Assembly: GCA_017635595.1 (NCBI GenBank)
Contig: JAGBLF010000027.1
Span: 24,530-88,529, forward strand
Direction: 5' to 3'
DNA from: Alphaproteobacteria bacterium
GTDB taxonomy: Bacteria > Pseudomonadota > Alphaproteobacteria > RF32 > CAG-239
DNA length: 64,000 nt
Of the stretch, positions 4,125 to 54,558 are shown in pieces (the stretch's first letter is position 1; each line of letters begins with the position of its first letter). Both the position numbers and the translations under genes were made by a program. The notes below the pieces were generated by a model. It saw only the letters and a list, made by a program, of their open reading frames with translations, was not told where the DNA came from and did not search any database.

Positions 4125-4147
4125 GGTGCTACCCCCTCGCGGTGTTT

Positions 4148-6793: not shown

Positions 6794-6809
6794 TCTTTAT
6801 TTCTTGGGT

Positions 6810-7721
6810 TTAAGCCAGAATAAAACCTTCTTCAAAGTTGAATCCGCGTAAAAGCTCATCTATTGACATTGAACGCTTGCCCTGACGTTGAATTTCTTTT
6901 ATCTTGAGAGCACCGTCCTTGCATGCAATAATCAATTCATGTTTACCGGCGATAATTTCCCCTATTTGACCGGAATCGATCATTTTTTCGGCTTTCATAA
7001 CCTTAAAACGCTCACCCTTATAATCAAAATACATCGCCGGATACGGACTGAAAGCACGAATTTTGTTGTATAGCATATCTATCGGCATTGAAAAATCAAT
7101 TTTACATTCGGCCTTATCGATTTTTTGAGCATAGCAGGCTCCCTCTTCGCTTTGCGGCTGTGGCTTATATTTTGTAACATCCGCCAAAACTTTAGAAATC
7201 AAATCGGCACCCAATTCGGACATCTTATCATGCAGCTCACCGCCGGTCATTGTATTGGTTATATCGATATAGCCTTTAAGAAGCATATCGCCGGTATCCA
7301 AACCTTCGGCCACCTGCATAATCGTTACCCCGCCCTCTTTATCGCCGGCTTCGATACAGCGCTGAATCGGTGCGGCACCGCGCCAACGCGGTAATAATGA
7401 AGCGTGAATATTTAAGCACCCCAACGGATATGCCTCCAACACCGGCAAAGGCAAAATCAACCCATAGGCGGCAACCACCGCCACATCTGCCTTCAATGCT
7501 GCAAATTTTTGCTGTTCTTCGACTGAACGCAGGCTCTTCGGTGTCCGCACTTCTATGCCATATTCTTCCGCGACCGAATGAATCGGCGTTTTGCTTAATT
7601 TATTACCGCGACCGGCAATTTTCGGTTCACGCGTATAAACACAAACCACTTGGTGTTCGGCTATTAAACGACGGAGCGCCGGAACTGAAAAGTCCGGCGT
7701 TCCCATAAAAACGACTCTCAT
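6810..7721 (-). CDS. fmt: Methionyl-tRNA formyltransferase.
   Basis: VVFMGTPDFSVP, HASLLPRWRGAAPIQ and the C-terminal domain are conserved. Confidence 0.92.
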   Translation of the reverse strand: MRVVFMGTPDFSVPALRRLIAEHQVVCVYTREPKIAGRGNKLSKTPIHSVAEEYGIEVRTPKSLRSVEEQQKFAALKADVAVVAAYGLILPLPVLEAYPLGCLNIHASLLPRWRGAAPIQRCIEAGDKEGGVTIMQVAEGLDTGDMLLKGYIDITNTMTGGELHDKMSELGADLISKVLADVTKYKPQPQSEEGACYAQKIDKAECKIDFSMPIDMLYNKIRAFSPYPAMYFDYKGERFKVMKAEKMIDSGQIGEIIAGKHELIIACKDGALKIKEIQRQGKRSMSIDELLRGFNFEEGFILA

Positions 7722-9595
7722 TCTTCGTTCAATCCTACACGATGTTGATTAACTTCAATTTTATAATCTTTGGCAAAGTCTTGTAACAAAGCTTCCGTCA
7801 TTTCGCGAACATTTTCGTTATATAATGTCTGCAGAATCATCTTCTTATCGGCATCCGATAATGAAGCCGAGTCATCAAAGATATCACTTGTTACCGCGAT
7901 GACGTAATCATCACCTGACTTAATGATTTGCGGTTCATCTTTAAGAGCGGCAAATAACGTACGCATATCATCTGTCGTCAAAACATCGATTTTTTCATCA
8001 CGTGTTACCGGCATGGTATTTTTAACCGACAGATTATAGCGGTGGGCAACAGAGGTTAAATCATCACCGGCATCCACATCATGCTGAATGTTATCAACCA
8101 ATTCCTGAACAATGGAAGCTCGTTCGTTTTCCAGCCAAAATTCTCTTAATTTTGCTTCAGCTTCGTCACGCGGTTGCTCATGGCTTTCAATAATACCATC
8201 GACCTTAACGACGGCAATTCCGTCATCGGTTTCGACGGCTTGACCTGTTTCACCTTCGTTATAAGAGAAAGCGGTATCAATAACATCTTTATTTTTAAGT
8301 ATTTCGGACAAAGTATCATCGGCGCTGTCATATCTGCCGTCCTCAGACACTCCTTTAACATTATACAAAGACACACCGTAAGATTCGGCTATGGCTGCCA
8401 AATCGGCACCGGCGCCGAGTTTATCCTCAATTTCGGATACAACCTCATAACTGTTATCATAGGCTTTATCCTGTCTGATTTCGTTAATAATCTTGGCTTC
8501 AGCCTGCGTTTTAGGCATTTTAATTGCTTCTTTTGCCTCGATGACTTTCAAAATTTGCCAACTGTCGGCAACTTTTTGAACTTCTGAAATTTTATTGAGC
8601 GGTAAAGCAAAAATAATTTCGGACAGCTCATCAGCCAAATCATCTTTGCCGACGAATCCTAAATCGGTATCGGCTTCGGTCTGACCGGCTTCCTTAGCTT
8701 CGGTCATAAAATCGGCACCTTCTTGTAACTTGGCATAAGCAACGTTAGCTTTTTCTTCGTTTTCAAATACCATTTGTAAAACGTGACGTTGTGCCGGTTG
8801 TTCAAATTCATCGATATGTTCTTTATAATAAGCGGCAATTTCTTCCGGTGTTACCTCGATTTTGTTAGCCAAATCGTTCTGTGCCAAATACAAAACCGTC
8901 AGGTCACGTTTTTCCGGAATCATCAATTCTTCTTTCATATCATCATAATATTGATCAAGTTCGTCTTTGCTCGGGCTGCGTGTTACTTTAACATTTTTAT
9001 TTTCTACTTTAACATATTTAAATGTACGGCGCTGACCGACAACTTTAGCCATCATCTGCTGAGCTATTTCCGGAACATTGGCATAAGAAACCTGAGAATC
9101 GAGCAAAACACTACGAGCCAAATTAAGTTTCAAGTTTTTGATATATTCTTTTTCCTCAACGCCGCCTTGGCGCAAATACCAGTTAAACTGTTCACGACTG
9201 AACTGACCGTTTACAGAAAATTGCGGCGTCACTAAAATGATTTCTCGAACCAAACTTGTCGGAAAATCGACATTATATTTTTTCATCGTATTTTCCAAAA
9301 TCATTTCATCCACCTTAGCTTTCAGCAACGCATCGGTAATTTGCGATTTTTGTTCGGCATGTTCTTCTAAATCGATACCGCTCATATTCTTGAACTCGAG
9401 TAATTTTCTTTGCAGAAAATAGTTGAACTCACTTTGAGTCATTTCCAAATCATCGACTTTTACAACCGTCTTATTGCTGTTGGCCGAGGTAATATATCCC
9501 GACACACCAAACAACGACATAAAGCTCAGAGCCGTAACGGTTAAGATAATTTTCGTAAACACACTGTTATGCATTTTGGCAAATTTATTAATCAT
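7718..9595 (-). CDS. ppiD: Periplasmic chaperone / peptidyl-prolyl isomerase PpiD-like (SurA-family domains with an N-terminal TM anchor).
   Basis: It has an N-terminal TM helix and is 625 aa with chaperone and parvulin-like regions. It overlaps fmt by 4 nt. Confidence 0.7.
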   Translation of the reverse strand: MINKFAKMHNSVFTKIILTVTALSFMSLFGVSGYITSANSNKTVVKVDDLEMTQSEFNYFLQRKLLEFKNMSGIDLEEHAEQKSQITDALLKAKVDEMILENTMKKYNVDFPTSLVREIILVTPQFSVNGQFSREQFNWYLRQGGVEEKEYIKNLKLNLARSVLLDSQVSYANVPEIAQQMMAKVVGQRRTFKYVKVENKNVKVTRSPSKDELDQYYDDMKEELMIPEKRDLTVLYLAQNDLANKIEVTPEEIAAYYKEHIDEFEQPAQRHVLQMVFENEEKANVAYAKLQEGADFMTEAKEAGQTEADTDLGFVGKDDLADELSEIIFALPLNKISEVQKVADSWQILKVIEAKEAIKMPKTQAEAKIINEIRQDKAYDNSYEVVSEIEDKLGAGADLAAIAESYGVSLYNVKGVSEDGRYDSADDTLSEILKNKDVIDTAFSYNEGETGQAVETDDGIAVVKVDGIIESHEQPRDEAEAKLREFWLENERASIVQELVDNIQHDVDAGDDLTSVAHRYNLSVKNTMPVTRDEKIDVLTTDDMRTLFAALKDEPQIIKSGDDYVIAVTSDIFDDSASLSDADKKMILQTLYNENVREMTEALLQDFAKDYKIEVNQHRVGLNEE

Positions 9596-9769
9596 TTTTA
9601 TTTCCTATTTTTAAAGTTATTTTTGGGCTATTATAAAAATTTATATAATTATTGCAATTCTTAAATTGAATTATGCAACACAATAAAACAGTGGCTAAAG
9701 TATTTTTTTTGTAGAAAGTTATATTTTAGTATGTTACAAGTATGCAGTTTTAGTTTTTTAAGAGGTTTT

Positions 9770-10534
9770 ATGAACATGGCTAGAAAAAAATTGATTGCCG
9801 GCAACTGGAAAATGAACTGTTTGACGGAAGAAGGTATTGCTTTGGCCAAGGCTGTTGCCGCTAAAGTAAAAGAAAATAAGTTTAATTGCGATTTCTTGAT
9901 TTGTCCGCCGTTTACGTTATTGGCTTCGGTTAAAAAATGTCTGCGCGGTACCAAAATTGCTTTGGGAGCACAGGATGTCCATTTTGCCGAAAAAGGCGCG
10001 CATACAGGAGATATCAGTCCTCTGATGCTGACAGACTTAGGTTGTAATTACACAATTATCGGTCACTCCGAACGCCGTGTTGATCATTTTGAATCAAACG
10101 AATTAATCAACAAAAAAGCCGTTGCCGCGCATGCTGCCGGTTTGAACACGGTTATCTGCATCGGTGAAACAGGTGAAGAGCGCGATGCCGGCAAAACTAT
10201 TAAAGTTTGCCAAGATGAAATCAACGGTTCCGTTCCGGAAGATGCCACTGCTAAAAATACGGTTATTGCTTATGAACCTATTTGGGCTATCGGTACGGGT
10301 AAAACACCGACGGCTGCCGATGTTCAGGAAGTTCATGCCGCTGTTCGTAAAGCTTTGGCCAAAAAGCTGGGGCGTGCAACCGCTAACAAAATGAGAATTT
10401 TGTACGGCGGGTCCGTTAAACCGGGTAACGCTGCCGAATTATTGAACTTACCGGATGTTGACGGTGCTTTAATCGGCGGTGCCAGCTTGAAAGCTGATGA
10501 TTTTATTGCCATTGCTCAAAACTCATGTAAATAA
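9770..10534 (+). CDS. tpiA: Triosephosphate isomerase.
   Basis: LIAGNWKMN, IGHSERR and AYEPIWAIGTG are present. Start chosen at the ATG (MNMARKK) preceded by AAGAGG; the longer ORF from 9731 has no RBS. Confidence 0.92.
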   Translation: MNMARKKLIAGNWKMNCLTEEGIALAKAVAAKVKENKFNCDFLICPPFTLLASVKKCLRGTKIALGAQDVHFAEKGAHTGDISPLMLTDLGCNYTIIGHSERRVDHFESNELINKKAVAAHAAGLNTVICIGETGEERDAGKTIKVCQDEINGSVPEDATAKNTVIAYEPIWAIGTGKTPTAADVQEVHAAVRKALAKKLGRATANKMRILYGGSVKPGNAAELLNLPDVDGALIGGASLKADDFIAIAQNSCK

Positions 10535-39994: not shown

Positions 39995-40849
39995 TCAGTC
40001 ATCCGCGGCAAGTTCGACTTTTGTCAGCAAAAATGCCGGCGTATGACGCCCGAAAGTATGATGCTTGCGCGCTAAATACAAAGCCTCCGAATCCTGTTCG
40101 GTGTCGGTTTTATCCTTTTTTTTCGACTTACGTTCCTTTTTAAAAGGTATCTTTTCTTCATTTTTAATCGGTTGCTCGGCAACTTCCGGACGTATCGGAA
40201 TAACCTCGGCCTGCGGTTCATTTTCCTCTTGAACGGCCTCTTGTTCTTTGGCTTTATCAATTTTAATTTCGGCCGGTGTTTTCAAAATTTTATCCAAAAT
40301 GCTCTGAGTTTCTTTAGAGCGGCGATTGGTATAAATAATGTTTTGCTTATCGGCCGGCAAAACCTCAAGAATTTTTTCCAAATTATCGAGCTGATGCAAT
40401 TTTTTGATTAAATTGATATCATCGACCACCAAAATATTTATTTGTGATAAGTCAACTTTTTCTTCTTTCAACAAATCGATTAACAAATTCGGCGAAGCGA
40501 TGATAACATTAGCCTCATTATCAACATTTTCTTCATCATCGGTAACGGTGCTTTCAGTGATTTCATGATATTTGTTGAAAACGGCAAACCGATCGGAAAC
40601 AATAACCGACTGCTTGGAATTGGCCGTAATAATCAAAATATTCTTAGCCTCATGCCGAGACATAATCTCAATCAGCGGAAAAACATACGAGCAGGTTTTG
40701 CCGCAAACGGCCGGTGCAATCGTAAATACATCTTTACCGGCCAAAATAGACGGGATAACATCCGTTTGAACGGTTGTCGGCATCGTAATTCCGGCTTCGT
40801 TAATAGCCTTAATGGTTTTTTCGCTTAATCCTAATTCTTTAAAATCCAT
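39995..40849 (-). CDS. Degenerate DEAD-box-like protein. It has RecA-like domain 1 only; motif II is VVDD rather than DEAD, there is no helicase C domain, and it ends in a Lys-rich tail.
   Basis: The Q-motif region FKELGLSEKTIKAINEAGITMPTTVQ matches. The Walker A motif is degraded (APAVCGKT). ILVVDDINL stands in for motif II, and no motifs IV-VI are present. Confidence 0.55.
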   Translation of the reverse strand: MDFKELGLSEKTIKAINEAGITMPTTVQTDVIPSILAGKDVFTIAPAVCGKTCSYVFPLIEIMSRHEAKNILIITANSKQSVIVSDRFAVFNKYHEITESTVTDDEENVDNEANVIIASPNLLIDLLKEEKVDLSQINILVVDDINLIKKLHQLDNLEKILEVLPADKQNIIYTNRRSKETQSILDKILKTPAEIKIDKAKEQEAVQEENEPQAEVIPIRPEVAEQPIKNEEKIPFKKERKSKKKDKTDTEQDSEALYLARKHHTFGRHTPAFLLTKVELAADD

Positions 40850-40858
40850 TTTAACCTC

Positions 40859-42727
40859 TTATACTTCCGGTACCGAAACTTTGGTTTGTTTTTCCGGCGG
40901 AACAGGTGTCTGTTCGCTGCGGTTAAGCGGTTTGCCCGCTATAACTTCTTTTATTTCGTCTCCGGTTAATGTTTCATATTCCATCAAAGCCTGAGCCAGT
41001 CGCTCCAGCTCCGTATCATATTTTTTCAAAATATTGGTGGCTTCCTCATGCGCCTCGGTCAGAAAACGCTTAATTTCGGCATCTACCAAGCGAGCGGTAT
41101 CTTCGCTCATATTCTTATTTTGGGTGACGGCACGGCCTAAAAATACTTCATTTGAATTTTCGGCATACAAAACCGGTCCCAATAAATCACTCATACCCCA
41201 TTCAGTTACCATCGAACGCGCTAAATTGGTGGCCGATGCAATATCGGCCGAAGCTCCGGATGTTACTTTGTCATAACCAAACTTCAACTCTTCACTGGCG
41301 CGACCGCCCATGCAAATAATCAAACGTGACAGCATTTTAGCGCGCGTATATGAATATTGATCTTTTTCCGGTAATTGCTGAACCATACCCAAAGCACGGC
41401 CTCTCGGAATAATTGTCGCCTTATGGATAGGGTCTGTTTCCGGCACATGTATCGAACAAATGGCATGTCCGGCTTCATGATAAGCCGTCAGCTTTTTCTC
41501 TTCTTCATCCATAGCCATTGATTTGCGTTCATTGCCCATCAGCACTTTATCTTTGGCATTATCAAAATCAACGGCGGTTACTTTGCGCTTATTGCGGCGT
41601 GCGGCCAATAAAGCTGCCTCATTAACAAGATTTGCCAAATCAGCGCCGGAAAAACCCGGTGTACCGCGGGCAATAACCGACAAATCAACATCACGAGCCA
41701 ACGGAACTTTACGTGCATGAACGTGCAAAATAGCCTCACGTCCTTTGATATCCGGATTGCTGACAACAACCTGACGATCAAAACGTCCCGGACGCAACAA
41801 CGCCGGATCCAAAACATCAGGCCGGTTGGTGGCGGCTATCAAAATTACATTTTCATTAGCCTCGAAACCATCCATTTCAACCAAAAGTTGGTTTAATGTT
41901 TGCTCGCGTTCATCATTACCGCCGCCCAAACCGGCACCGCGGTGACGACCGACGGCATCAATTTCATCAATAAATAAAATGCACGGCGAGTGTTTTTTGG
42001 CCTGTTCAAACATATCTCTGACACGTGAAGCACCGACACCGACAAACATCTCCACAAAATCCGAACCGGAAATAGAGAAAAACGGCACATTTGCCTCACC
42101 GGCAACGGCACGTGCCAACAACGTTTTACCCGTACCCGGAGGGCCTACCAATAAAACACCCTTTGGAATTTTGCCGCCCAAACGTTGAAACTTCATCGGA
42201 TCTTTTAAGAAGTCGATAATCTCCTCTAACTCTTGTTTTGACTCATCGGCGCCGGCAACATCCTTAAATGTAACCTTTTTATTATTTTCAATCAACCGAG
42301 CGCGCGATTTACCGAAACTCAAAGCTTTATTATTGCCGGCATTGGCCTGACGCATAAAGAAAATCCAAACGCCGACCAACAATATCATCGGGAACCATGA
42401 AATAAAAATGCTCCAAAACGTATCGCCTGATGTATCTTTCGGGCGGGCCTCGACTTTAACATTATTTTCAATAAGCGTATCAATGGTTGTCGGGCTGTAA
42501 GGTGCTACGGTCGTAAACTTGCGGCCATCGGTTGTCATACCGTAAATTTCAGGTCCGGTAATCGTTACATCGGCAACATGCTTATCTTTAACTTTATTCA
42601 TAAAGTCGGAAAACGCTATTTGCTCCGAGCCGGCCATACCGATTTTTTGACTGTCGGCAAGTCCGAATATTATCGTCAGAACAACAAAAATCGCTATCCA
42701 TATAATTGCATTTTTTCCAAATTTCAT
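40859..42727 (-). CDS. ftsH: ATP-dependent zinc metalloprotease FtsH.
   Basis: Two N-terminal TM helices, an AAA module ([13 protein letters not shown]), an SRH region and the HEAGHA zinc motif. Confidence 0.97.
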
Positions 42728-42799: not shown

Positions 42800-43732
42800 T
42801 TAATCCCCGATTGCGTTACGTCCTTTAAATACACCATTTTCATACCCCTGTATTGTTTTATTTTCATCGGCATCGGCCAAGCGTTTCATGCTCAAAGCCA
42901 CATACTTGCGCTCACGCTCAATGCCCAAAAAGCGCCGACCGAGTTTTTTGGCCGCCACCGCCGTTGTCCCCGAACCGACAAACGGATCAAAAACCATATC
43001 ACCTGCATTGCTGGATGCCAAAATCAATTTAGCGATAAGCTTTTCCGGTTTTTGTGTCGGATGCTCGGTATTCTCCCCCATAGACCAAAACGGGATGGTA
43101 ATATCTGTCCAAATATTCGACGGGGCCGTATAACGAATCTTATTTCCGTTCTTTTCGTGCCAATCTTTCGGTAATCCCTGACTGTCGCGGTACGGTGCAA
43201 TGACGCGGCGCTCAACTTTTACGGCATCCAAATTAAAAGTATAGGTATCCGATTTGGTAAAAAACCAGATATCCTCCAAGCAATTTTTCCAGTTGTTTTG
43301 GGCAGCCCGTCCCTTTTCACGCTCCCAGGAAATACGGTTACGCAGTGCAAAATATTTGCAGGCGACCTGCGGTATAACAATAGAACTCTGCCAATCCGAA
43401 CAAATATACAAAGAAGCATTCGGTTTCATTATCCGCCCCAATTTAGAGAGCCATTTATCAAGCCATTTGCGGTAATCGCTCAAATCCATCTGCCGAAATA
43501 CATTCTGACCGAAGTTTTTAGTCAGATTATACGGCGGATCAACAATAATCAAATCGGCAAAATTGTCCGGAATGTAGCGCAACGCATAAAAAGTATCCTG
43601 CCAGATAATTTGATTATCCAAGGAAAAGTTATGATTCTGCGGCGAAAATTTAACGGCTTTGGCCGCATAATCAATTTCCTCTCGGTGCGAAAGGATTATT
43701 GTTTTATTGCGCGGTGCGATGTTTTTTTTCAC
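42800..43732 (-). CDS. ccrM: Beta-class N6-adenine DNA methyltransferase of the CcrM/M.HinfI family. It is an orphan with no adjacent restriction endonuclease and lacks the CcrM C-terminal extension.
   Basis: Motif IV IIVDPPYNL, HPTQKPE and motif I FDPFVGSGTT, in beta-class order. HPTQKPE is identical to my recollection of C. crescentus CcrM. It overlaps the HPr stop by 4 nt. Confidence 0.75.
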   Translation of the reverse strand: MKKNIAPRNKTIILSHREEIDYAAKAVKFSPQNHNFSLDNQIIWQDTFYALRYIPDNFADLIIVDPPYNLTKNFGQNVFRQMDLSDYRKWLDKWLSKLGRIMKPNASLYICSDWQSSIVIPQVACKYFALRNRISWEREKGRAAQNNWKNCLEDIWFFTKSDTYTFNLDAVKVERRVIAPYRDSQGLPKDWHEKNGNKIRYTAPSNIWTDITIPFWSMGENTEHPTQKPEKLIAKLILASSNAGDMVFDPFVGSGTTAVAAKKLGRRFLGIERERKYVALSMKRLADADENKTIQGYENGVFKGRNAIGD

Positions 43733-44007
43733 TCTTCTTCACCAAAACGAGAATTAACCAAACGAGTTAAATTATCAAGGGCCGTTTTTGCTTCGCTACC
43801 CGATGTTTTAACTTTGATAACACTGCCTTTTGAAGCGGCAAGCATCATTAAGCTTAAAATTGAGCTGCCGTCAACTTCCTGCCCGTCTTTTTCGACCGTA
43901 ACCTCAGCATCCGTACAAGATACGCACTTGACAAATGCCGCTGCTGCACGGGCATGCAAGCCTTTTTGGTTGCATATTGTCAGTTCTTTTTCCAAAACTT
44001 CACTCAT
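43729..44007 (-). CDS. ptsH: Phosphocarrier protein HPr/NPr.
   Basis: GLHARAAA active-site His15 region; 92 aa. Confidence 0.8.
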   Translation of the reverse strand: MSEVLEKELTICNQKGLHARAAAAFVKCVSCTDAEVTVEKDGQEVDGSSILSLMMLAASKGSVIKVKTSGSEAKTALDNLTRLVNSRFGEEE

Positions 44008-44432
44008 TTGGAAGTCCCATTCAATAATTGTGAGGCTACATTAATGTATTTTTTGCCGGCATCCTGAGCACATTCGACACATTCGCCCAAGCTTTTATCT
44101 TTGCGAGCCGAAGCTAGTTTAATCAACATCGGCAAATTAACACCGGCGATAACGTCGAAATTACCATGTCCGATAACCGACATTGCCAAATTTGACGGTG
44201 TTCCGCCGAACATATCGGTCAGCAACAAAACGCCCTTTCCGTCATCAACAGATTTGGCTTTATCCAAAATTTCCTGCCGGCGAGCATCCATATCATCATC
44301 CGGCCCGATACATACACAGGCCACTTTTTCTTGCGTACCGACAACGTGCTGCATAGCCGCCAAAAACTCCACGGCTAAATTGCCGTGTGTGACAAAAACC
44401 AATCCGATCATTTTGTTGCTCCGCCTGTCCAA
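44004..44432 (-). CDS. PTS EIIA component, mannose/fructose family (ManX-like, regulatory).
   Basis: IGLVFVTHGNLA (His10 region) and the EIIA-Man fold signature. The position directly upstream of HPr follows the alphaproteobacterial hprK-EIIA-npr module. Confidence 0.75.
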   Translation of the reverse strand: MDRRSNKMIGLVFVTHGNLAVEFLAAMQHVVGTQEKVACVCIGPDDDMDARRQEILDKAKSVDDGKGVLLLTDMFGGTPSNLAMSVIGHGNFDVIAGVNLPMLIKLASARKDKSLGECVECAQDAGKKYINVASQLLNGTSK

Positions 44433-44827
44433 GTTTTGATGGCGCCGAAGGATTTTAAGATTTCTTCTTTACTCTTAGCTCTGAACAATTCATCGGCGCG
44501 GGTACGACGACCATTCAAAACAATTTCTTCCACATTTTCAACTGCCACGGCATACACACGGTCAACAACCTCGCCGTGCAGTTCCACAATCATAACAACT
44601 TCAGACTCGGCCAAAACGGCAGCGGTTTCCGGATCGATATTGTCTAAAATAATGGAACGACGATCATCACGGCGCAACAAAGCCGTTTTTTTACTGTCAA
44701 ATTGCAGCAAAGGTTCATGCGGTTCATCGTCACGCGCATCGATAAAAATAGCTAATTCACCGTATTTGTTTTCGATAATTTCAAAAAAGTCTTGCTTTTC
44801 CATTAATGTATAATATTGGTTTTCCAT
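44408..44827 (-). CDS. Hypothetical 139-aa acidic protein occupying the position where HprK would be expected; it has no P-loop.
   Basis: Start chosen at the ATG (MENQYY) with a GGGGAAG RBS; the longer ORF begins at TTG. No Walker A motif, so it is not HprK. It overlaps the EIIA gene by 25 nt. Confidence 0.4.
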   Translation of the reverse strand: MENQYYTLMEKQDFFEIIENKYGELAIFIDARDDEPHEPLLQFDSKKTALLRRDDRRSIILDNIDPETAAVLAESEVVMIVELHGEVVDRVYAVAVENVEEIVLNGRRTRADELFRAKSKEEILKSFGAIKTWTGGATK

Positions 44828-44906
44828 TCTTCTTCCCCAATAAGTTTTCAAAGTTACCTGAGTTTAAAACATTTTTTTATAAAAGTAAATCTTAACTTTA
44901 TGCTTG

Positions 44907-45797
44907 TTATCTGACTTTGTCATTTTTCTTCAAGGATTCCTTTAACAGTTCTTTCATCTGAACCGAATATGATTTACCGCCGCTCTTTTGTTTGTCTTCA
45001 GGTTTACGTGATGTTGTTTGGTGCTTTATTTCTGACAGGCGTGCCGTTTGTCCCGATTTTTTCAAAATCAGTTCGGCAGTTTCATTTTGCGACATATTTT
45101 TTTGTGCAATATTTTTAACATCATCCATCTTAAGCGACTTTACTTTACGGTTTTCGGTCACATCTCTGACTTTGCGAACACCCTCGACAATTTTACCTTC
45201 GTTATGCTTGGTTACGTTACCTTCAATTCCCAGTTTTTCGGTAATATTGTGCGCCAAAGCCTCACGGCGCAAACGACTCGGATTATAAATGGCATCTTGC
45301 ATTTCTTTGGTAAATTCATCGGTAGTCATTTTTCTAAGACCGGCCTGTCTGAGTTTAGTATCGGCATGTTCCAACGCATCTTGTCTGCCGGCATCTTGCT
45401 CATGCCGCGTAATTTCGATATTGGTGTTTTGCATAATTTGCCGGCGTTCATTTTCCGACAGCGAATTAATCAGCGTATTATCGCCGTTTGAGGCATCGGT
45501 TTGATTAATTTGCAGTTCTTGCAGCGAACGGATAACATCTTCGTCCATACTGCCGTCATCTTCTTCATCATACGAATCGCGTACTTTTTTACGCAATTTC
45601 TTCATATTTTTCGGAAGTGCGCTGATTTTCTTTTTTCCCTTTTCGGCGCTATATTGCTCGGCTTCCTGCACATTTATTTTAAGAGTGAGACGCTCGTTAT
45701 TGTCGAATCCCTTTTTATCGGATTTGCCGTTTTTTTGCTGAGCATCCTTTTTATCTTCCCGTTCGTCGTCTGTTTCTTCGTATTTGATATCTGCCAT
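44907..45797 (-). CDS. Hypothetical highly charged (K/E/D-rich) low-complexity protein.
   Basis: 296 aa, ~45% charged residues, with no TM and no recognised domain. Long ORF consistent with coding. Confidence 0.4.
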   Translation of the reverse strand: MADIKYEETDDEREDKKDAQQKNGKSDKKGFDNNERLTLKINVQEAEQYSAEKGKKKISALPKNMKKLRKKVRDSYDEEDDGSMDEDVIRSLQELQINQTDASNGDNTLINSLSENERRQIMQNTNIEITRHEQDAGRQDALEHADTKLRQAGLRKMTTDEFTKEMQDAIYNPSRLRREALAHNITEKLGIEGNVTKHNEGKIVEGVRKVRDVTENRKVKSLKMDDVKNIAQKNMSQNETAELILKKSGQTARLSEIKHQTTSRKPEDKQKSGGKSYSVQMKELLKESLKKNDKVR

Positions 45798-45850: not shown

Positions 45851-47503
45851 TTATTTTATGGTATACGTTATCATAATAGAACCGTCATAAAAAATTTGCG
45901 GAGACACATCGATTTTAACATTATCATCGCGCGACAGATTAAATTTGCGACCTTCTGTAATATTGGCAATCATGCTTTGTCTGAAAGTGTCCCAATCTTC
46001 GATATTGGAGAAAAACAGCTTTTGATACGCGATAATTTCCTCTAATTTCGGTTCATCCTGCAATTTTACGAAATCTATACTCCATAATTTCAAATACGCT
46101 TTATTATAAAATTTTAAACGCTGATTGGCACCGAATATAACAACCGAATCTGTCAGATTATCCAAAATATTTTGCTGCATTGAGGTCAACTCGTTTAAAC
46201 GGCGCATGGTTGCCAAACGGTCTGAAACATCTTCATAAGCAAAAATAACACCGTTCGGATGCGGCGCACGCAGGCGGCGAATCGTTCGGCCGTCAGAAAG
46301 GTGCAACAAGTCTTCTTTAGGCTCGAGCAAATTATCGAAAATACTCATTTCATCTTCTTTATAAGCCTTAAAGTCAGGTACCGGCGGTAACATTTTATGC
46401 TCGCGAACATTATCTAAAAACTGTAAATAAGTCGGCGTTTTTTCCAAAAATTCCGCTTCCAGATTCCACAAATAACGAAAAGACGTATTAGAAAAAAACA
46501 ATTTCATTTTAGAATCGTAAATTGCAATCGCTGTACCGAGTGCCGATAGAATGCCCAAATGATTATTTTGATTAATACGGAAATTACGTTTGGCTTTTTC
46601 TAACTCGGTAATATCGTTCAAATAACCGACCGTACCGATTTTATCCAGTATATCACCGACAAAATAAGGGGTTTCCTGAACCTCGTAATTATACAATTCT
46701 CCCTTATGCGCCATATTAAACGTCATTTTTTGAATTTTTTTGGTTTTCTGTGCTTCTTGAGCAATTTTTTTGGCGACGGCTTCACCTTTACCATTGCTCA
46801 ATTCGACATTTTTGCGCAAAACTTCGTCTTTACTGCTCAGGCCGCTGTACTCAAGATACTTTTTATTCACAACCAGCAGATTCAAATTTTCATCACGCAG
46901 CCACAGCGGATAATTTAAGCCGTCTACCATGTTTTCATATTGTTTCAGCGAATGTTTAATACTTTGTTTTTCATTTTCCAAATCCGCCAATCTGGCAGCC
47001 TCAGCCGTTACTTCGCGAAACCAAACCGTATCGCAATACAAATTATTATCTCGTCCGTTAACACGATTTCCGTAAACACAAACATAACGATGTTTACCTT
47101 TAAGGGCTAAAATATCTTCAAAAGCCAGTCCTTCTTGCTTGAGCATTACGACATATTTTTTGAGTATGCGAGCATCTTCCTTGGTAAAAGAATCGGCAAT
47201 TTCATCAAATGATGATGCCGTACCGTTTTTAAGCCCGAGCATTACCGACAAGCGCCGAGAACACTTTTCGACAATACCTTTTTGCGGATCTTTAACTTTT
47301 TGGTCGGGATACACAAAACAAAAATAACCGTCTTTGGCAGAAAACAAAAGTTCATGACAGCGCTCGCGATCACGCTTGATAAAATAGATTTTACACTTAT
47401 ATTTGTATAAAAGGACCTGCATATAAATAATAATACCTATCATTATTATTTCAAAAAGCAGGCTCAATATAACAAGATCTCTGAATATTTCTTCTTCGTT
47501 CAT
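45851..47503 (-). CDS. Membrane-anchored multi-PAS-domain protein with no transmitter (kinase) domain.
   Basis: N-terminal TM (LVILSLLFEIIMIGIIIYMQVLL). There are at least three PAS-like segments (…LNYPLWLRDENLNLLVVNKKYLEYSGLS…, …ILSALGTAIAIYDSKMKLFFSN…, …ILDNLTDSVVIFGANQRLKFYNKAYLKLW…). No H-box or HATPase motifs. Confidence 0.55.
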   Translation of the reverse strand: MNEEEIFRDLVILSLLFEIIMIGIIIYMQVLLYKYKCKIYFIKRDRERCHELLFSAKDGYFCFVYPDQKVKDPQKGIVEKCSRRLSVMLGLKNGTASSFDEIADSFTKEDARILKKYVVMLKQEGLAFEDILALKGKHRYVCVYGNRVNGRDNNLYCDTVWFREVTAEAARLADLENEKQSIKHSLKQYENMVDGLNYPLWLRDENLNLLVVNKKYLEYSGLSSKDEVLRKNVELSNGKGEAVAKKIAQEAQKTKKIQKMTFNMAHKGELYNYEVQETPYFVGDILDKIGTVGYLNDITELEKAKRNFRINQNNHLGILSALGTAIAIYDSKMKLFFSNTSFRYLWNLEAEFLEKTPTYLQFLDNVREHKMLPPVPDFKAYKEDEMSIFDNLLEPKEDLLHLSDGRTIRRLRAPHPNGVIFAYEDVSDRLATMRRLNELTSMQQNILDNLTDSVVIFGANQRLKFYNKAYLKLWSIDFVKLQDEPKLEEIIAYQKLFFSNIEDWDTFRQSMIANITEGRKFNLSRDDNVKIDVSPQIFYDGSIMITYTIK

Positions 47504-50970: not shown

Positions 50971-53900
50971 CTACCAAACCTCGTTATACTTAAGGTTAGG
51001 GTCATTCAAACGGTTGAGATATTGATCCGGTGCCGCTTTGTGATAACTATCCGGAATAGTTGATTTCAGCGGGTGATAAATATCAACATAAGCGCTGTAA
51101 CCATCAGCAAACGGCTCGGTTTGTAAGTTGGCTCGGTTAAAGTAACAATAGGTTGTCACCGTTGCCTCGAGAGTGTCTTTAACCACAGGGAAAACATTCC
51201 ATGAAAGAGTTCCCTTTGAATTAACATGTTTCGAACCGGTACCGCTCAGATATTCATCATAAATATATGTCGGATAAACAAAGCCTAACAATATGGCCCA
51301 TGCTTTTGTATATTGACCATCGCACGCTGTTGATCCGACGGTAGTATCCGCACCACACAACGGAACCGTCAAAGCTTTAAGCCATGTATTTTGTTGGAAA
51401 ATAAAAGGCTTTAATGTTTTAGAAACATCCTTGGCCGTTAATACATAATGAACTTGAGAACCATCTTTGGCGTAAGAACGTGCCGTCATATTGCTGATAT
51501 CTTCAACAACAAACTCATCAGAATATCCCGCGAATCTCATTCTGGCTCGGTAATCACTATAAGTGTCCTCTACGCTCAACTGGCGATATTGCGGCAAAAT
51601 GTTATCTTTCAGGTTAGCGTCAGAATATGTATCATTCATAGCTCTTGCCGCTTCCGAAGTTGCCATTAATTGTTCTTCAACAAGATAATGCGGACCGGAA
51701 TTCTTCGTATCCGTTTGTACAAGGTTGCCGGCTTGTGCCATGTTCATACTCAGCGGATTTACCGTAATTACACGCATATACCCCGGCGGACATTGCGGAG
51801 TCGGAACCGATCCGGTATATGGTGAAGCCCAATCGACATCACTGGATGTTAAAACTTGTTGACCGCCGACACGACCATTTGCAACGTCATTGTAATTAAA
51901 GGTAAAGTTAGTAATATTATCATCTTTATTATTATTGGCAATGTAAATGCCTTTGGTAATAAAGTCAGGCAACACATCGCTCAAACGAGCACCGCCGCGT
52001 GTTGTCAATTTAATATCATGCATGACGGACGTATATGCCGGATTAACCATATAGGTATCATATCTGTTCAGATGAGCAGAACCGTTATACGTATTATATG
52101 TTTCTTGCTTTACCAATGGCGGAACAGAAACATAGTCTCCATTTGCATCCAAATTATTAGCCACAAAACGGCTGGCCTGAACTGAACCGCTTGACGATTT
52201 TGCAACCATATTACCGTTACCCCCGACATCATCGGACGGTCTTGACGGCATAATACTTACGGACCCCTTGCGGATATACACCGTTCCCGGATCAATTTTT
52301 TGACTATTGACCGTAAACTGTGAGTAACCGTCATAGCTAGGACTTTCATCATATGTTGTATCTTTGTGCTGCAAATCAAACATCACGGCTTTTTCATCTC
52401 TTGTTGTAGAATCGGCATAGATATCAATACCGGCATCTGCATCATACTTACCGATAGCCATATATTTATAGTTGTTATTGATTGAATCGGAATACAGATC
52501 CGGTGTAAAAGCGACCTGACCGTGTACAGCCATATCATAATGGATATTGCGGCTGCCGTTTACCATATCATCATGGTAGTTTCGATAATAATTCGAACCG
52601 CCATATATCTCTTCCTGGTCTCTGTCATTACCGGCAATAGAGACCACTTTTGAACCATCTTCCCTGATAACATTGAAATTAGAACCGACTAAGTCCAAAC
52701 TACCGTTTCCGCCGATTAGAACGCGGAAATTGGAATAAGAATCCGAAATACTATCCAAATCAGCACCAAAATAAATTTCATTTGCCGTTATTTGTTCTTT
52801 TAAGTGCTCATTGCCTATTGTTATCTTCCCGTCTTGCTTTGCTGTCAAATCAATATCATGTGCCGTCGCTTTTACAGAGTTATCCGAATAACCGTCGGAT
52901 GGATTATTGACCGCAAAAGTTGCTGCCTCGCCATCAGATTCATCATCGGTGCCATCACCGCCGGAACGAATTCTGAAACCATTATGGTCGATATCCACCG
53001 CAACTTTAGCCGAACCGTCTTCACGGCGCTGATAATCATACATTTTGATACCGTCTTTATCTACATCGAGCCATTGATACTGATCATCAACCTTTTCAGA
53101 ACCGGTTTTTAAGGTCGCGGTTCTGATACGATTGGTATCAATCTGGTCAGCTGCCAATAAACCGCGAACGCGCGTATTTGAACCGATTATAACCGGAAAT
53201 ACTTGTTTACCGTTATCACTATACTGGATTGCCCCGATTGTCGACTTTATACCGCCTTCATTAATTTTATTATAGCCATCCTTCATCATAGTGATTTGTC
53301 CGTTCTTTTCAGATGAATCATAGCTTATATCATCACTGTATGCGTTGCTTCCTTCCGTTTCCATATGAAACATATTTTCACGTACCAAACTCAACTCCGT
53401 GCCGGATGAATGTATACCGTGTGTTGCACTGATAACAAAGTCTTTACCGTCCCAGCCTCTGCCACCGATATGAACCATACCGCAATAGGCATCTGATGCA
53501 AAACCTTCGGCTAAGCTGAGGTTACCGTATTGTGACATATCACCCTGATAGGAAGTGATTTGAAACAGATAATCTCCGCCGTGAGTCAAAGACTGAGAAC
53601 CGCTTTTTTTAGCAAATTGCAACTTGGCTGAATCAGCAAAGAATTGTTCTGCAGCCGCTTTTACCGAGCCGCCGATAATAGCATTTTTATTTGCGGCATC
53701 CGGCGAAACATACAAACCGACATTGCTAACACCGGAAGGTACATTTTCAGTTCCGATAATCATGCTGTCAACGCTGCGAATACTGTGCATGGTTGCACCC
53801 TCCGGCGTATCAAGCGGGTGTTCATCGCCGTCGTTATACCCCCCCATATACAAATCCGTACGCATTGTGTTGCGCCATTTTTCTTCATCGCCTTCATAAG

Positions 53901-54558
53901 TTCTTTGCAAATATTTGGAATTATCCAAATCACCGCCTTGTGTGCTACCGTTTACGGCATTTGAGGTCGATGCAACCAATGAATATACCGGAGAATTGTC
54001 ACTCGGAAATACTTTAGAATAATCAGCGCCGTTCAAAGTCCAGATACCGCCGACACCGCGCGCACTGTTCGGCCCTCTGACATAACCGCCGTTGGCACCG
54101 ACTAATGAGGCAATACGGGCTGTTCTCTCCTGGCCGATACTGTCATCCTCATTTTCAGCTCGAGCCGGAAACAGAGCAAATGCCGTTAAATTGGTGCCGT
54201 TTTTAACAATGCTTATTTTCGGTGTTCCATATTCATATAAAGCATGATCTACTTGGAAATTATATGGTAAGAACGCATCTAAGTCACCCCCGCTGACATT
54301 AACCTCCTTAACGTCACTGCCGTTGTCCTCCATGTCTTTAACAATAGTTGTATAGTTGGCGGCCATTAAAGAATTAACGGCATTCATATATGTACGAACC
54401 GTCGTTGCCGTGTTAATATCTTCAACTTCCAGAGTTCTTTCTGCAGATTTTTTATACATTGTCGGCGTAACGACAGCCATTAAACCAAGCATCGCCAGCG
54501 CTTCTACCATCATACCACCTTTCTCGAGTATGGATTTTTTGTTAATAAATTTTTTCAT
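50971..54558 (-). CDS. Giant (1195 aa) secreted/surface protein with a prepilin/TadE-like N-terminal hydrophobic helix (conserved Glu) and a D/G/S/N/Y-rich body. Function unknown.
   Basis: The N-terminus is MKKFINKKSILEKG|GMMVEALAMLGLMAVVTP: a short basic leader, Gly, Glu at +5 after a putative Gly-Gly cleavage, and a ~20-aa hydrophobic helix. This resembles the class III (prepilin) signal and the TadE_N motif (VEFAL...P). The remainder is acidic and glycine-rich with no recognised domain. Downstream terminator. Confidence 0.55.
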   Translation of the reverse strand: MKKFINKKSILEKGGMMVEALAMLGLMAVVTPTMYKKSAERTLEVEDINTATTVRTYMNAVNSLMAANYTTIVKDMEDNGSDVKEVNVSGGDLDAFLPYNFQVDHALYEYGTPKISIVKNGTNLTAFALFPARAENEDDSIGQERTARIASLVGANGGYVRGPNSARGVGGIWTLNGADYSKVFPSDNSPVYSLVASTSNAVNGSTQGGDLDNSKYLQRTYEGDEEKWRNTMRTDLYMGGYNDGDEHPLDTPEGATMHSIRSVDSMIIGTENVPSGVSNVGLYVSPDAANKNAIIGGSVKAAAEQFFADSAKLQFAKKSGSQSLTHGGDYLFQITSYQGDMSQYGNLSLAEGFASDAYCGMVHIGGRGWDGKDFVISATHGIHSSGTELSLVRENMFHMETEGSNAYSDDISYDSSEKNGQITMMKDGYNKINEGGIKSTIGAIQYSDNGKQVFPVIIGSNTRVRGLLAADQIDTNRIRTATLKTGSEKVDDQYQWLDVDKDGIKMYDYQRREDGSAKVAVDIDHNGFRIRSGGDGTDDESDGEAATFAVNNPSDGYSDNSVKATAHDIDLTAKQDGKITIGNEHLKEQITANEIYFGADLDSISDSYSNFRVLIGGNGSLDLVGSNFNVIREDGSKVVSIAGNDRDQEEIYGGSNYYRNYHDDMVNGSRNIHYDMAVHGQVAFTPDLYSDSINNNYKYMAIGKYDADAGIDIYADSTTRDEKAVMFDLQHKDTTYDESPSYDGYSQFTVNSQKIDPGTVYIRKGSVSIMPSRPSDDVGGNGNMVAKSSSGSVQASRFVANNLDANGDYVSVPPLVKQETYNTYNGSAHLNRYDTYMVNPAYTSVMHDIKLTTRGGARLSDVLPDFITKGIYIANNNKDDNITNFTFNYNDVANGRVGGQQVLTSSDVDWASPYTGSVPTPQCPPGYMRVITVNPLSMNMAQAGNLVQTDTKNSGPHYLVEEQLMATSEAARAMNDTYSDANLKDNILPQYRQLSVEDTYSDYRARMRFAGYSDEFVVEDISNMTARSYAKDGSQVHYVLTAKDVSKTLKPFIFQQNTWLKALTVPLCGADTTVGSTACDGQYTKAWAILLGFVYPTYIYDEYLSGTGSKHVNSKGTLSWNVFPVVKDTLEATVTTYCYFNRANLQTEPFADGYSAYVDIYHPLKSTIPDSYHKAAPDQYLNRLNDPNLKYNEVW

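What the first reader, a model, noticed from the sequence alone, without database searches (positions are those of the whole stretch)
42800..44851. CcrM-family orphan adenine methyltransferase translationally coupled to the HPr/EIIA(Man) regulatory PTS module, which lacks a recognisable HprK
The methyltransferase has beta-class motif order (DPPY...HPTQKPE...FxGSGTT) like CcrM/M.HinfI and has no nearby endonuclease. It is ~50 aa shorter than Caulobacter CcrM at the C-terminus. Its start overlaps the HPr stop (ATGA-type overlap), which places a cell-cycle-type DNA methyltransferase in the same transcription unit as EIIA(Man)-HPr, just upstream of ftsH. In Alphaproteobacteria this PTS module is normally hprK-EIIA-npr. 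Here the slot upstream of EIIA holds a 139-aa acidic protein with no P-loop, so HprK appears to be absent or replaced.
Basis: partly seen in the sequence, partly recalled or inferred. Interest (0 to 1): 0.55.

Follow-up and report, generated by a model that had tools for sequence, protein, structure and literature searches.

The report
Orphan adenine methylase in PTS operon
In a group of uncultured gut Alphaproteobacteria, a DNA adenine methyltransferase that is not CcrM is the last gene of a compact four-gene operon with two regulatory phosphotransferase proteins and an unknown protein, so DNA methylation is probably expressed together with nutrient signalling; the "missing" HPr kinase sits elsewhere in at least one close relative.

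Summary
The sequence facts are real. On the minus strand, four genes overlap stop-to-start: a 139-aa acidic protein, EIIA(Man), HPr/NPr and a 310-aa beta-class N6-adenine methyltransferase (MTase). They lie 72 nt upstream of ftsH, with no endonuclease nearby.

This four-gene block, headed by a sigma-70-type promoter match, is conserved in about 40 species-level gut and rumen alphaproteobacterial MAGs, although the flanking genes differ. The MTase co-diverges with EIIA and HPr. It was therefore acquired once and inherited vertically as an orphan.

1. The enzyme is not a CcrM-family member. It scores 111 bits on the NCBIfam CcrM model, whose cutoff is 830. It lacks the CcrM-specific C-terminal domain. 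It aligns over its full length to M.BceJIV, M.MboIIA, M.RsrI and YhdJ-type type II methylases. GANTC shows no special bias.

2. HprK is not lost from the clade. One member that carries the operon (L019) has a canonical short hprK overlapping tsaE, 5.5 kb away. The same tsaE-hprK block occurs in related gut contigs. The window's own genome could not be checked.

The 139-aa protein is unrelated to HprK. Its core is an unannotated ~95-aa domain that is fused to TIR domains in other bacteria.

The MTase sits where canonical Alphaproteobacteria carry sahH. This is a new variant of known kinds and is moderately interesting. The methylation target is unknown.

The parts
44861..44889 (-). Putative sigma-70-type promoter of the operon: TTTACT (44889-44884), 17-nt spacer, TAAACT (44866-44861).
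   Evidence: Read from the sequence. A positionally equivalent AAAATTGACA-N17-TAnCAT is seen in the aligned upstream regions of the other clade loci. The regex TT[GT]AC[AT]-N16-18-TAnnnT matches within 150 nt upstream of the first gene in 35 of 35 assessable loci. The scan tool scores it 10-11 of 12 in L010 and L015. In the window it matches only 8 of 12, so it is inferred from position.
44408..44827 (-). ORF139, the first cistron. Acidic 139-aa protein. Residues ~9-104 form an unannotated beta-rich domain, followed by a clade-specific C-terminal tail.
   Evidence: There are 783 homologs, most of 139 aa, all named hypothetical. No hit in Pfam, NCBIfam, PADLOC or PHROGs. The profile search finds the ~95-aa domain standalone, in tandem, C-terminal to TIR domains, and in a STAND NTPase-TPR protein. 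AF2 model pLDDT is 84.5. Foldseek finds no match in PDB or BFVD. hhalign against HprK gives probability 0.4%.
44004..44411 (-). ptsM-like EIIA of the mannose family, 135 aa. Its ATG overlaps the ORF139 stop (ATGA).
   Evidence: Pfam EIIA-man, E = 1.5e-29. The THG histidine segment is conserved in 38 sequences. Overlap read from the sequence.
43729..44007 (-). HPr/NPr-family phosphocarrier, 92 aa. Its ATG overlaps the EIIA stop (ATGA).
   Evidence: Pfam PTS-HPr, E = 5.4e-26; TIGR01003 at 91 bits. The His15 equivalent (H18) and the Ser46 equivalent (S49) are invariant in 39 sequences.
42800..43732 (-). Orphan beta-class N6-adenine DNA methyltransferase, 310 aa. GTG start overlapping the HPr stop (GTGA).
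   Evidence: Pfam N6_N4_Mtase, E = 2e-45. The best PADLOC model is a type II MTase at 221 bits; the orphan-MTase model scores 107 bits. Best PDB matches are M.BceJIV (8urk, E = 1e-32), M.MboIIA and M.RsrI, all over the full catalytic core. The start position is collinear with the ATG starts of relatives. The catalytic motifs are invariant in 47 sequences.
40859..42727 (-). ftsH, the downstream neighbour. This is context only. It follows the MTase only in the window's nearest relatives.
   Evidence: Pfam Peptidase_M41, AAA and FtsH_ext. ftsH is downstream in L004-L006 and L047 only; in the other loci LolA and XthA follow. No terminator-like site is found in the 72-nt gap.

Best explanation
A type II-like, beta-class N6-adenine DNA methyltransferase of the YhdJ / M.BceJIV / M.RsrI / M.MboIIA kind was captured once by the ancestor of a gut- and rumen-associated alphaproteobacterial lineage. 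It has been kept since then, without a partner endonuclease, as the fourth cistron of a compact operon: ORF139 - ptsM (EIIA-Man-like) - ptsO (HPr/NPr) - MTase.

The operon is transcribed from a conserved sigma-70-type promoter upstream of ORF139. The cistrons are translationally coupled or nearly so. The amount of methylase made therefore follows the expression of the regulatory PTS proteins. The enzyme most likely makes m6A at a specific but still unknown DNA motif and acts as a solitary, housekeeping or epigenetic methylase.

It is not CcrM. ORF139 is not HprK. hprK has been moved to a tsaE-hprK pair elsewhere in at least some members.

Shown: gene identities, overlaps, clade-wide conservation of the block and of a promoter-like sequence, co-divergence, non-membership in the CcrM and HprK families, and hprK elsewhere in a relative.

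Inferred: co-transcription, m6A chemistry (from the DPPY motif), orphan status genome-wide, and any functional link to the PTS.
For: Gene identities and 4-nt overlaps.

Conservation of the block:
- It is present in 38 further GTDB species representatives, all gut or rumen Alphaproteobacteria MAGs, with MTase identity of 62-91%. The flanks change from PAS/ORF296...FtsH to ABC transporter/gyrB/recF...LolA/XthA.
- Junction gaps across the clade are -4 to +41 nt (ORF139 to EIIA), -4 to +6 nt (EIIA to HPr) and -4 to +17 nt (HPr to MTase).
- A promoter-like site lies upstream of ORF139 in 35 of 35 loci.
- No promoter-like site was found directly upstream of the MTase in the window.

Vertical inheritance:
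- The clade's MTases are monophyletic in a neighbour-joining tree. Their pairwise identities track those of EIIA and HPr (Spearman 0.78 and 0.77).
- Catalytic motifs are invariant.

Family placement:
- Homologs at 45-58% identity occur in Anaerolineae, Ignavibacteria, Victivallales, Negativicutes and Firmicutes without PTS neighbours. This is the scattered distribution typical of type II methylases.
- PRK11524 (YhdJ) scores 163 bits and the CcrM model 111 bits against a cutoff of 830. There are full-length PDB alignments to M.BceJIV, M.MboIIA and M.RsrI.

hprK elsewhere.
Against: - No expression or methylome data exist, so co-transcription and activity are inferred.
- An internal promoter inside ptsM or ptsO cannot be excluded by a consensus scan.
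- Orphan status is shown only for about 10 kb on each side. A cognate endonuclease elsewhere in the genome is not excluded.
- The link to the PTS could be purely positional.
- The window's own promoter matches the consensus in only 8 of 12 positions.
- Two MAGs carry two copies of the block (L005/L006, L018/L021). These are probably mixed-strain bins, but they could indicate mobility.
Confidence: 0.6

Rival explanations
1. One reading: the enzyme is a (C-terminally shortened) CcrM-family methylase that methylates GANTC and acts as the cell-cycle methylase.
For: Beta-class motif order, orphan status and vertical inheritance within an alphaproteobacterial lineage resemble CcrM. The cofactor-binding half aligns well to CcrM, at 64.5 bits. 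GANTC is about 1.8-fold below the base-composition expectation in the window.
Against: - The NCBIfam CcrM model scores 111 bits against a cutoff of 830.
- The N-terminal half aligns to CcrM at only 21.6 bits, and the target-recognition region does not align.
- The CcrM-specific C-terminal domain, which PMC3973325 uses to define the family, is entirely missing.
- The PADLOC orphan-MTase model scores 107 bits, against 221 bits for a type II MTase model.
- GANTC ranks 6th of 16 (window) and 8th of 16 (clade) among composition-matched xyNzw controls. Its observed/expected ratio under a maximal-order Markov model is 0.85-0.88. Its intergenic-to-coding density ratio is only 1.1-1.35.
Confidence: 0.04
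2. Non-orthologous replacement. The lineage has no CcrM, and this methylase has taken over the role of the essential, clade-wide epigenetic regulator. Its synthesis, or even its activity, is controlled through NPr and EIIA(Man).
For: The gene is conserved clade-wide, inherited vertically and keeps invariant catalytic motifs. It is always the cistron after ptsO. No other beta-class methylase was seen in 0.84 Mb of held clade DNA. It occupies the slot that holds sahH, a methyl-cycle enzyme co-transcribed with ptsO, in Brucella, Agrobacterium and Sinorhizobium (PMC2937029).
Against: The presence or absence of CcrM in these genomes could not be tested. The 0.84 Mb is mostly the same locus from many genomes. 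There is no evidence of cell-cycle control or of a PTS-MTase interaction. The sahH parallel may be coincidence.
Confidence: 0.15
3. Passenger gene. The methylase is the surviving half of a former restriction-modification system, or a defensive solitary methylase. It happened to insert behind ptsO and is kept there only because the site provides steady expression. It has no functional tie to the PTS.
For: The family scores best against type II MTase models and is scattered across phyla. One homolog, in L039, is followed by a 220-aa ORF with a weak, sub-threshold HincII-endonuclease hit. GATC, GGNCC and CTAG are strongly depleted in these genomes, which suggests long exposure to restriction systems.
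Against: A neutral passenger would not be expected to keep its position, with a spacer of 17 nt or less, and its catalytic motifs through divergence down to 61% identity while both flanks were rearranged. The HincII hint was not confirmed by the PDB or PADLOC searches.
Confidence: 0.2
4. ORF139 is a degenerate HprK that has lost its P-loop.
For: It occupies the hprK position relative to ptsM-ptsO and has a similar length (139 aa, against 135-145 aa for short HprK).
Against: - hhalign of its family against an HprK alignment gives probability 0.4%.
- No Pfam Hpr_kinase_C hit at E <= 0.1 and no Walker A motif in any of 29 family members.
- The confident AF2 model is mainly beta-strand and matches no PDB fold.
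- Its remote homologs are TIR-fused and standalone ~100-aa domains.
- It coexists with a true hprK in L019.
Confidence: 0.01

Closest known systems
CcrM (Caulobacter crescentus cell-cycle-regulated GANTC methylase; PDB 6PBD)
   Same: Beta-class N6-adenine methylase. Orphan. Vertically inherited within an alphaproteobacterial lineage. Strongly similar cofactor-binding motifs (HPTQKPE ... FxGxGTT).
   Different: - No CcrM C-terminal domain.
- The target-recognition region does not align.
- Scores 111 bits against a cutoff of 830 on the CcrM model.
- About 26 extra N-terminal residues, carrying a family-specific APRNKT motif.
- Encoded as the last cistron of a PTS operon.
- No GANTC signature in the DNA.
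M.BceJIV (Burkholderia cenocepacia orphan GTWWAC methylase; PDB 8URK) and YhdJ (E. coli/Salmonella, NCBIfam PRK11524)
   Same: The best full-length matches: 117 bits to 8URK, 163 bits to PRK11524, and 33-36% identity to genes annotated yhdJ. Same compact beta-class architecture of about 280-310 aa with no extra C-terminal domain. Both are solitary methylases.
   Different: Below the PRK11524 cutoff of 292 bits, so not an equivalog. The target-recognition segment shows little similarity to M.BceJIV, so the target is probably different and is unknown. Neither YhdJ nor M.BceJIV is known to me to be encoded in a PTS operon (from memory).
Canonical alphaproteobacterial regulatory PTS locus chvI-chvG-hprK-ptsM-ptsO-sahH (Brucella, Agrobacterium, Sinorhizobium; PMC2937029)
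   Same: ptsM (EIIA-Man-like) and ptsO (NPr/HPr) are adjacent in the same order. The phosphorylatable His and the regulatory Ser of HPr are conserved. A gene connected with S-adenosylmethionine chemistry follows ptsO.
   Different: - hprK is replaced in position by the unrelated ORF139 and is found next to tsaE elsewhere.
- There is no chvI-chvG upstream. Instead there is a PAS-only protein in the window's subgroup, or a divergent ABC transporter in the others.
- sahH is replaced in position by a SAM-dependent DNA methylase.

Membership tests
CcrM family (as defined in PMC3973325) | Beta-class motif order (motif IV DPPY before motif I FxGxG) | tested here: met
   DPPY at residues 65-68, HPTQKPE at about 223-229, FVGSGTT at about 250-256.
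CcrM family (as defined in PMC3973325) | [quoted passage not shown] | tested here: not met
   The alignment to 6pbd ends at query residue 286 of 310 and at CcrM residue 259 of 366. There is no sequence left to form the domain. Definition quoted.
CcrM family (as defined in PMC3973325) | High overall similarity, including the target-recognition domain | tested here: not met
   NF050803 (CcrM, Caulobacter) scores 111 bits against a cutoff of 830. The alignment is split, 21.6 + 64.5 bits, and the region between them does not align.
CcrM family (as defined in PMC3973325) | GANTC specificity, reflected in GANTC depletion and intergenic enrichment | tested here: inconclusive
   The Markov observed/expected ratio is 0.85 (window) and 0.88 (504 kb of clade DNA). 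GANTC is mid-ranked among 16 composition-matched controls, with an intergenic-to-coding density ratio of 1.10-1.35. The specificity itself cannot be tested here.
CcrM family (as defined in PMC3973325) | Orphan and vertically transmitted | tested here: met
   No endonuclease-like neighbour. Monophyly and co-divergence with EIIA and HPr. This feature is shared with many non-CcrM orphan methylases.
YhdJ (NCBIfam PRK11524 equivalog) | Score above the curated cutoff | tested here: not met
   163 bits against a cutoff of 292. This is the best NCBIfam hit but it is sub-threshold. Identity to annotated yhdJ genes is 33-36%.
N6/N4 amino-methyltransferases, Pfam PF01555 | Domain match above the gathering score, with intact catalytic and SAM-binding motifs | tested here: met
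   155.9 bits against a cutoff of 26.7, covering profile positions 2-220 of 221. The motifs are invariant in 47 sequences.
HprK/P (for the 139-aa protein) | Hpr_kinase_C domain with a Walker A P-loop | tested here: not met
   No Pfam hit at E <= 0.1. No Walker A motif in 29 of 29 members. hhalign against an HprK alignment gives probability 0.4%. No PDB fold match.
Alphaproteobacterial regulatory PTS locus (hprK-ptsM-ptsO-sahH downstream of chvIG) | ptsM and ptsO adjacent and in this order | tested here: met
   EIIA-man followed by PTS-HPr, with gaps of -4 to +6 nt, in 39 loci.
Alphaproteobacterial regulatory PTS locus (hprK-ptsM-ptsO-sahH downstream of chvIG) | hprK immediately upstream, chvI-chvG further upstream, sahH downstream | tested here: not met
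   ORF139 lies upstream and the MTase downstream. No response regulator or histidine kinase is adjacent. hprK is next to tsaE in L019 and in L058-L062.
Type II restriction-modification system | Cognate restriction endonuclease gene adjacent to the methylase | tested here: not met
   None in the window or in clade loci. The rest of the genome was not searchable.

The most novel reading that the evidence does not exclude
This gut alphaproteobacterial lineage has replaced the CcrM paradigm with a different, non-homologous-in-family orphan m6A methylase. Its production, and possibly its activity, is tied to the nitrogen/carbon-sensing regulatory PTS (NPr, EIIA-Man) through a four-gene operon. The operon's first product, ORF139, is a new PTS-associated regulator built on a previously undescribed domain that is also found fused to TIR immune effectors. 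Under this reading, the positional swap of sahH for a SAM-consuming DNA methylase would reflect an ancestral link between the PTS and the methyl cycle.
Probability: 0.12. Interest if true: 0.7.

Novelty: new variant of a known kind. Interest (0 to 1): 0.42.

Why it matters
Orphan DNA methylases such as Dam, CcrM, CamA and M.BceJIV are the main known epigenetic regulators in bacteria. How their levels are tied to physiology is mostly unknown outside Caulobacter.

Here a solitary adenine methylase has stayed welded to the regulatory PTS genes (spacers of 17 nt or less) throughout the diversification of an abundant, uncultured group of gut and rumen Alphaproteobacteria. This gives a concrete, testable candidate for coupling between nutrient signalling and genome methylation.

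It also corrects two tempting annotations. The enzyme is not CcrM. HprK is not missing, at least in a close relative that carries the operon.

Finally, it points to an unannotated ~95-aa domain shared between a PTS-operon protein and TIR-domain proteins.

Tried and rejected
- **AF2 with a shallow alignment.** The first AF2 run on ORF139, using 29 close homologs, gave pLDDT 47 and was discarded. A diverse 58-sequence alignment gave pLDDT 84.5.
- **Sequence libraries for ORF139.** A sequence-profile search of the ORF139 family against PDB gave nothing below E = 0.4. PADLOC, PHROGs and NCBIfam found nothing for ORF139 or for its standalone homologs.
- **Genomic contexts of standalone ORF139-domain homologs.** Two were examined and were uninformative.
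- **Inferring the methylation target.**
  - GANTC, GTWWAC, ATGCAT, GAATTC, GAAGA and other motifs show no specific signal.
  - The weak HincII-endonuclease hit next to the Anaerolineae homolog (E = 0.004, below the cutoff) was not confirmed by PDB or PADLOC.
  - The closest annotated records, Prevotella F0039 at 49.5% and an unverified faecal "phage" contig at 52.5%, carry no annotation.
- **Tying an HprK to the window's own MAG.** Comparing NCBI accession series failed because most hits carry no accession. No hprK lies in the window, or in any held locus other than L019.
- **Looking for CcrM in the clade.** No second beta-class methylase was found in the 0.84 Mb of held DNA. This is far from whole genomes.
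- **Literature.** A search for the gut clade (RF32/CAG-239) found nothing on its genetics. The RF32 assignment is from my memory and is untested.
Full report
**What is there**

On the minus strand of the window, four genes follow each other with 4-nt stop/start overlaps.

- A 139-aa acidic protein at 44408-44827. The mechanical ORF from a TTG reaches 44851, but 139 aa is the length of nearly all homologs.
- An HPr-family phosphocarrier at 43729-44007.
- A 310-aa DNA methyltransferase (MTase) at 42800-43732.

The junctions read ATGA, ATGA and GTGA. The MTase therefore starts with GTG, not ATG. In relatives an ATG start lies at the collinear position, which supports this start.

ftsH begins 72 nt further on. 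No terminator-like or promoter-like site is detected in that gap.

The MTase has the beta-class motif order and a full-length Pfam N6_N4_Mtase match. Nothing resembling a restriction endonuclease lies within about 10 kb. The window is ordinary chromosome: the dcw cluster, ATP synthase, clpB, ruvC and yebC. It holds only this one amino-methyltransferase.

**Where it comes from, and how conserved it is**

The exact proteins occur on metagenome contigs, and NCBI names them "MAG: Alphaproteobacteria bacterium". A scan of one genome per GTDB species found 38 further species representatives that carry the same four genes in the same order. All are uncultured Alphaproteobacteria from human, mouse, rabbit and ruminant guts. 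From memory I suspect this is the RF32/CAG-239 lineage; that is untested.

MTase identity to the window ranges from 62% to 91%. Only the four nearest relatives share the window's flanks: the PAS protein and ORF296 upstream, and ftsH downstream. In the others a divergent ABC transporter, gyrB and recF lie upstream, and lolA and xthA lie downstream. The four-gene block is therefore the conserved unit.

Across the clade the gaps are:

- -4 to +41 nt between ORF139 and EIIA
- -4 to +6 nt between EIIA and HPr
- -4 to +17 nt between HPr and the MTase

This leaves no room for an intergenic promoter. The conserved GGxGAAGAA at the end of HPr (encoding Gly-Glu-Glu) could serve as a Shine-Dalgarno-like sequence; that is inference.

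Upstream of ORF139, the aligned sequences show a positionally conserved AAAATTGACA-N17-TAnCAT. The scan tool rates it 10-11 of 12 in two loci. A relaxed pattern is found in 35 of 35 loci. In the window the equivalent is TTTACT (44889-44884), a 17-nt spacer, and TAAACT (44866-44861). I conclude that this is a single operon. Co-transcription is inferred, not shown.

**The methyltransferase is vertically inherited but is not CcrM**

The clade's MTases form one group in a neighbour-joining tree, set apart from homologs at 45-58% identity in Anaerolineae, Ignavibacteria/Melioribacter, Victivallales, Negativicutes and Firmicutes. None of those homologs has PTS neighbours. Pairwise MTase identities track those of EIIA and HPr (Spearman 0.78 and 0.77). 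DPPY, HPTQKPE and the FxGSGT motif are invariant in 47 sequences. This is the signature of one acquisition followed by purifying selection: a domesticated orphan.

Family assignment, however, goes against CcrM.

- The NCBIfam CcrM equivalog model gives 111 bits against a cutoff of 830. The best NCBIfam hit is the YhdJ model PRK11524, at 163 bits against a cutoff of 292.
- Against solved structures, the whole catalytic core aligns to M.BceJIV, M.MboIIA and M.RsrI. M.BceJIV is 8URK/9C3U, E = 1e-32, and one search confirms it is the GTWWAC orphan methylase of Burkholderia.
- CcrM (6PBD) aligns in two pieces, 21.6 bits for the N-terminal half and 64.5 bits for the SAM-binding half. The target-recognition region between them is left out.
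- About 107 CcrM residues remain beyond the end of the alignment, against 24 here.
[quoted passage not shown] That domain is absent.
- PADLOC type II MTase models score 221 and 199 bits. Its orphan-methylase model scores 107 bits in two pieces.
- GANTC gives no help. Its observed/expected ratio under a maximal-order Markov model is 0.85 in the window and 0.88 in 504 kb of clade DNA. By base composition it is 0.56 and 0.68, but that places it 6th and 8th of 16 composition-matched xyNzw motifs. Its intergenic-to-coding density ratio is 1.10-1.35.

The DPPY motif argues for m6A rather than m4C; this rests on established knowledge of the class and was not tested. The target sequence remains unknown. 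The target-recognition segment bears little resemblance to that of M.BceJIV. A weak HincII-like neighbour of one distant homolog did not hold up.

**The 139-aa protein and HprK**

The canonical alphaproteobacterial locus is chvI-chvG-hprK-ptsM-ptsO-sahH, and it is co-transcribed in Brucella (PMC2937029). Here the hprK position is held by ORF139.

ORF139 has pI 4.73 and no Walker A motif in any of 29 family members. It has no hit in Pfam, NCBIfam, PADLOC or PHROGs. An exhaustive profile search showed that full-length relatives are confined to this clade. Residues ~9-104, however, form a ~95-aa domain that occurs in four other settings:

- as standalone ~100-aa proteins
- in tandem
- C-terminal to TIR domains
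- inside a STAND-NTPase/TPR protein

No library names this domain. With a diverse alignment, AlphaFold gives a confident model (pLDDT 84.5) that is mostly beta-strand with one helix. The model matches nothing in PDB or BFVD. A profile-profile comparison with an alignment of 20 short HprK proteins gives probability 0.4%. ORF139 is not a degenerate HprK.

HprK is not missing from the lineage.

- A motif search of the held loci found a canonical 142-aa HprK in L019: Pfam Hpr_kinase_C, E = 2.8e-19, with GASGAGKS and LVADD motifs. L019 is a roe-deer MAG that also carries the four-gene operon. There hprK overlaps tsaE and lies 5.5 kb from the MTase on the opposite strand.
- Its closest relatives (50-61% identity, 135-145 aa) sit in the same tsaE-hprK-mlaE-mlaF-radA-cvpA block on gut metagenome contigs. 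The dnaN, parE and tsf genes of those contigs are 75-86% identical to those flanking the operon in other clade members.
- The His15 and Ser46 equivalents of HPr (H18, S49) are invariant in 39 species. This is compatible with continued HprK control but does not prove it.

I could not show an hprK in the window's own genome. It is not in the 64 kb, and the accession-series approach failed.

**How it most likely works**

The best-supported reading (confidence about 0.6) is this. A type II-lineage adenine methylase was captured once and then fixed as the last cistron of the ORF139-ptsM-ptsO operon. Its synthesis is therefore slaved to the promoter and translation of the regulatory PTS genes. It acts as a solitary m6A methylase on an unknown motif.

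An attractive but unproven point is that it occupies the position of sahH. In the canonical locus, sahH is the methyl-cycle enzyme co-transcribed with ptsO.

The rivals are:

- A mere passenger, the remnant of a restriction-modification system (about 0.2). The strict positional and catalytic conservation through rearrangement of both flanks argues against it.
- A non-orthologous functional replacement of CcrM under PTS control (about 0.15). This is untestable here because whole genomes could not be searched.
- True CcrM membership (about 0.04).
- ORF139 as a degenerate HprK (about 0.01).

**Verdict**

- Supported: an orphan methylase in the PTS transcription unit, and the hprK slot filled by a different protein.
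- Not supported: CcrM-family membership, and the absence of HprK.

Nothing comparable turned up in the literature searches I ran, which were not aimed at this arrangement, so I rate it a new variant of known kinds. It is moderately interesting, mainly as a testable link between nutrient signalling and DNA methylation in an abundant uncultured gut lineage, and for the unannotated ORF139 domain.

Noticed in passing
Whole window; clade loci L004-L038, L046-L048: GATC is strongly depleted. The observed/expected ratio under a maximal-order Markov model is 0.34 in the window (78 observed, 229 expected) and 0.36 in 504 kb of clade DNA. CTAG (0.39-0.47), GGNCC (0.53-0.72) and GGCC (0.56-0.63) are also low. 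This suggests long-term exposure to GATC- and GGNCC-type restriction, or some other constraint.
   Followed up: no
window 44408-44827 (-); proteins P0256-P0389: The core of ORF139 (residues ~9-104) is an unannotated ~95-aa beta-rich domain. It is also found standalone, in tandem, C-terminal to TIR_2 domains (P0260, P0263, P0270), and inside a STAND NTPase-TPR protein (P0326). There is no Pfam, NCBIfam or PADLOC model and no PDB fold match.
   Followed up: partly
L019 14445-15318 (-); L058-L062 around 9537-10438: In this gut lineage the short-form hprK overlaps tsaE, in a conserved block tsaE-hprK-mlaE-mlaF-radA-cvpA. It does not sit next to ptsM-ptsO.
   Followed up: partly
window 45851-47503 (-) and 44907-45797 (-): Upstream of the operon lies a 550-aa protein with an N-terminal hydrophobic segment and PAS, PAS_7 and PAS_8 domains, but no HisKA, HATPase or other output domain. 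It is followed by a 296-aa Lys/Glu/Asp-rich protein with no family hit. Both are conserved only in the window's nearest relatives. They sit where chvI-chvG would lie in the canonical locus.
   Followed up: no
window 39995-40849 (-): This 284-aa protein starts 10 nt after ftsH. It has only the N-terminal DEAD domain (residues 25-172), with no Helicase_C domain, and a Lys/Glu-rich tail. It is conserved at 63-90% identity in the nearest relatives.
   Followed up: no
window 50971-54558 (-): A 1195-aa ORF with no Pfam hit on record. Several neighbouring ORFs of 200-300 aa also have none.
   Followed up: no
L005/L006 (JAFVEP01) and L018/L021 (CALYBB01): Two MAGs each carry two diverged copies of the whole four-gene block on different contigs. 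L005 and L006 are 80% and 78% identical to the window's MTase, and L018 and L021 are 65% and 67%. They are most likely mixed-strain bins, but a duplication is not excluded.
   Followed up: no
Clade loci, about 10 nt upstream of the -35 element of the operon promoter (e.g. L015 ~6795-6812): A conserved (G/A)TTAAC(T/A)(C/T)AAAA element immediately precedes TTGACA in most loci. It could be an UP element or a regulator site. In several loci it reads GTTAAC.
   Followed up: no
L039 9012-9674 (+): In an Anaerolineae MAG, the 55%-identical MTase homolog is followed 10 nt later by a 220-aa ORF. That ORF has a sub-threshold Pfam hit to restriction endonuclease HincII (E = 0.004), which PDB and PADLOC do not confirm. 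It may be the only R-M-like context in the family.
   Followed up: partly
L057 (MT836501.1) 1188-2096; L056 (NC_022111.1) 4001-4924: Full-length homologs occur on an unverified "Bacteriophage sp." contig from human faeces (52.5% identity) and in Prevotella sp. oral taxon 299 F0039 (49.5%). The Prevotella record is a 1.77-Mb replicon filed as a plasmid. Neither record is annotated.
   Followed up: no
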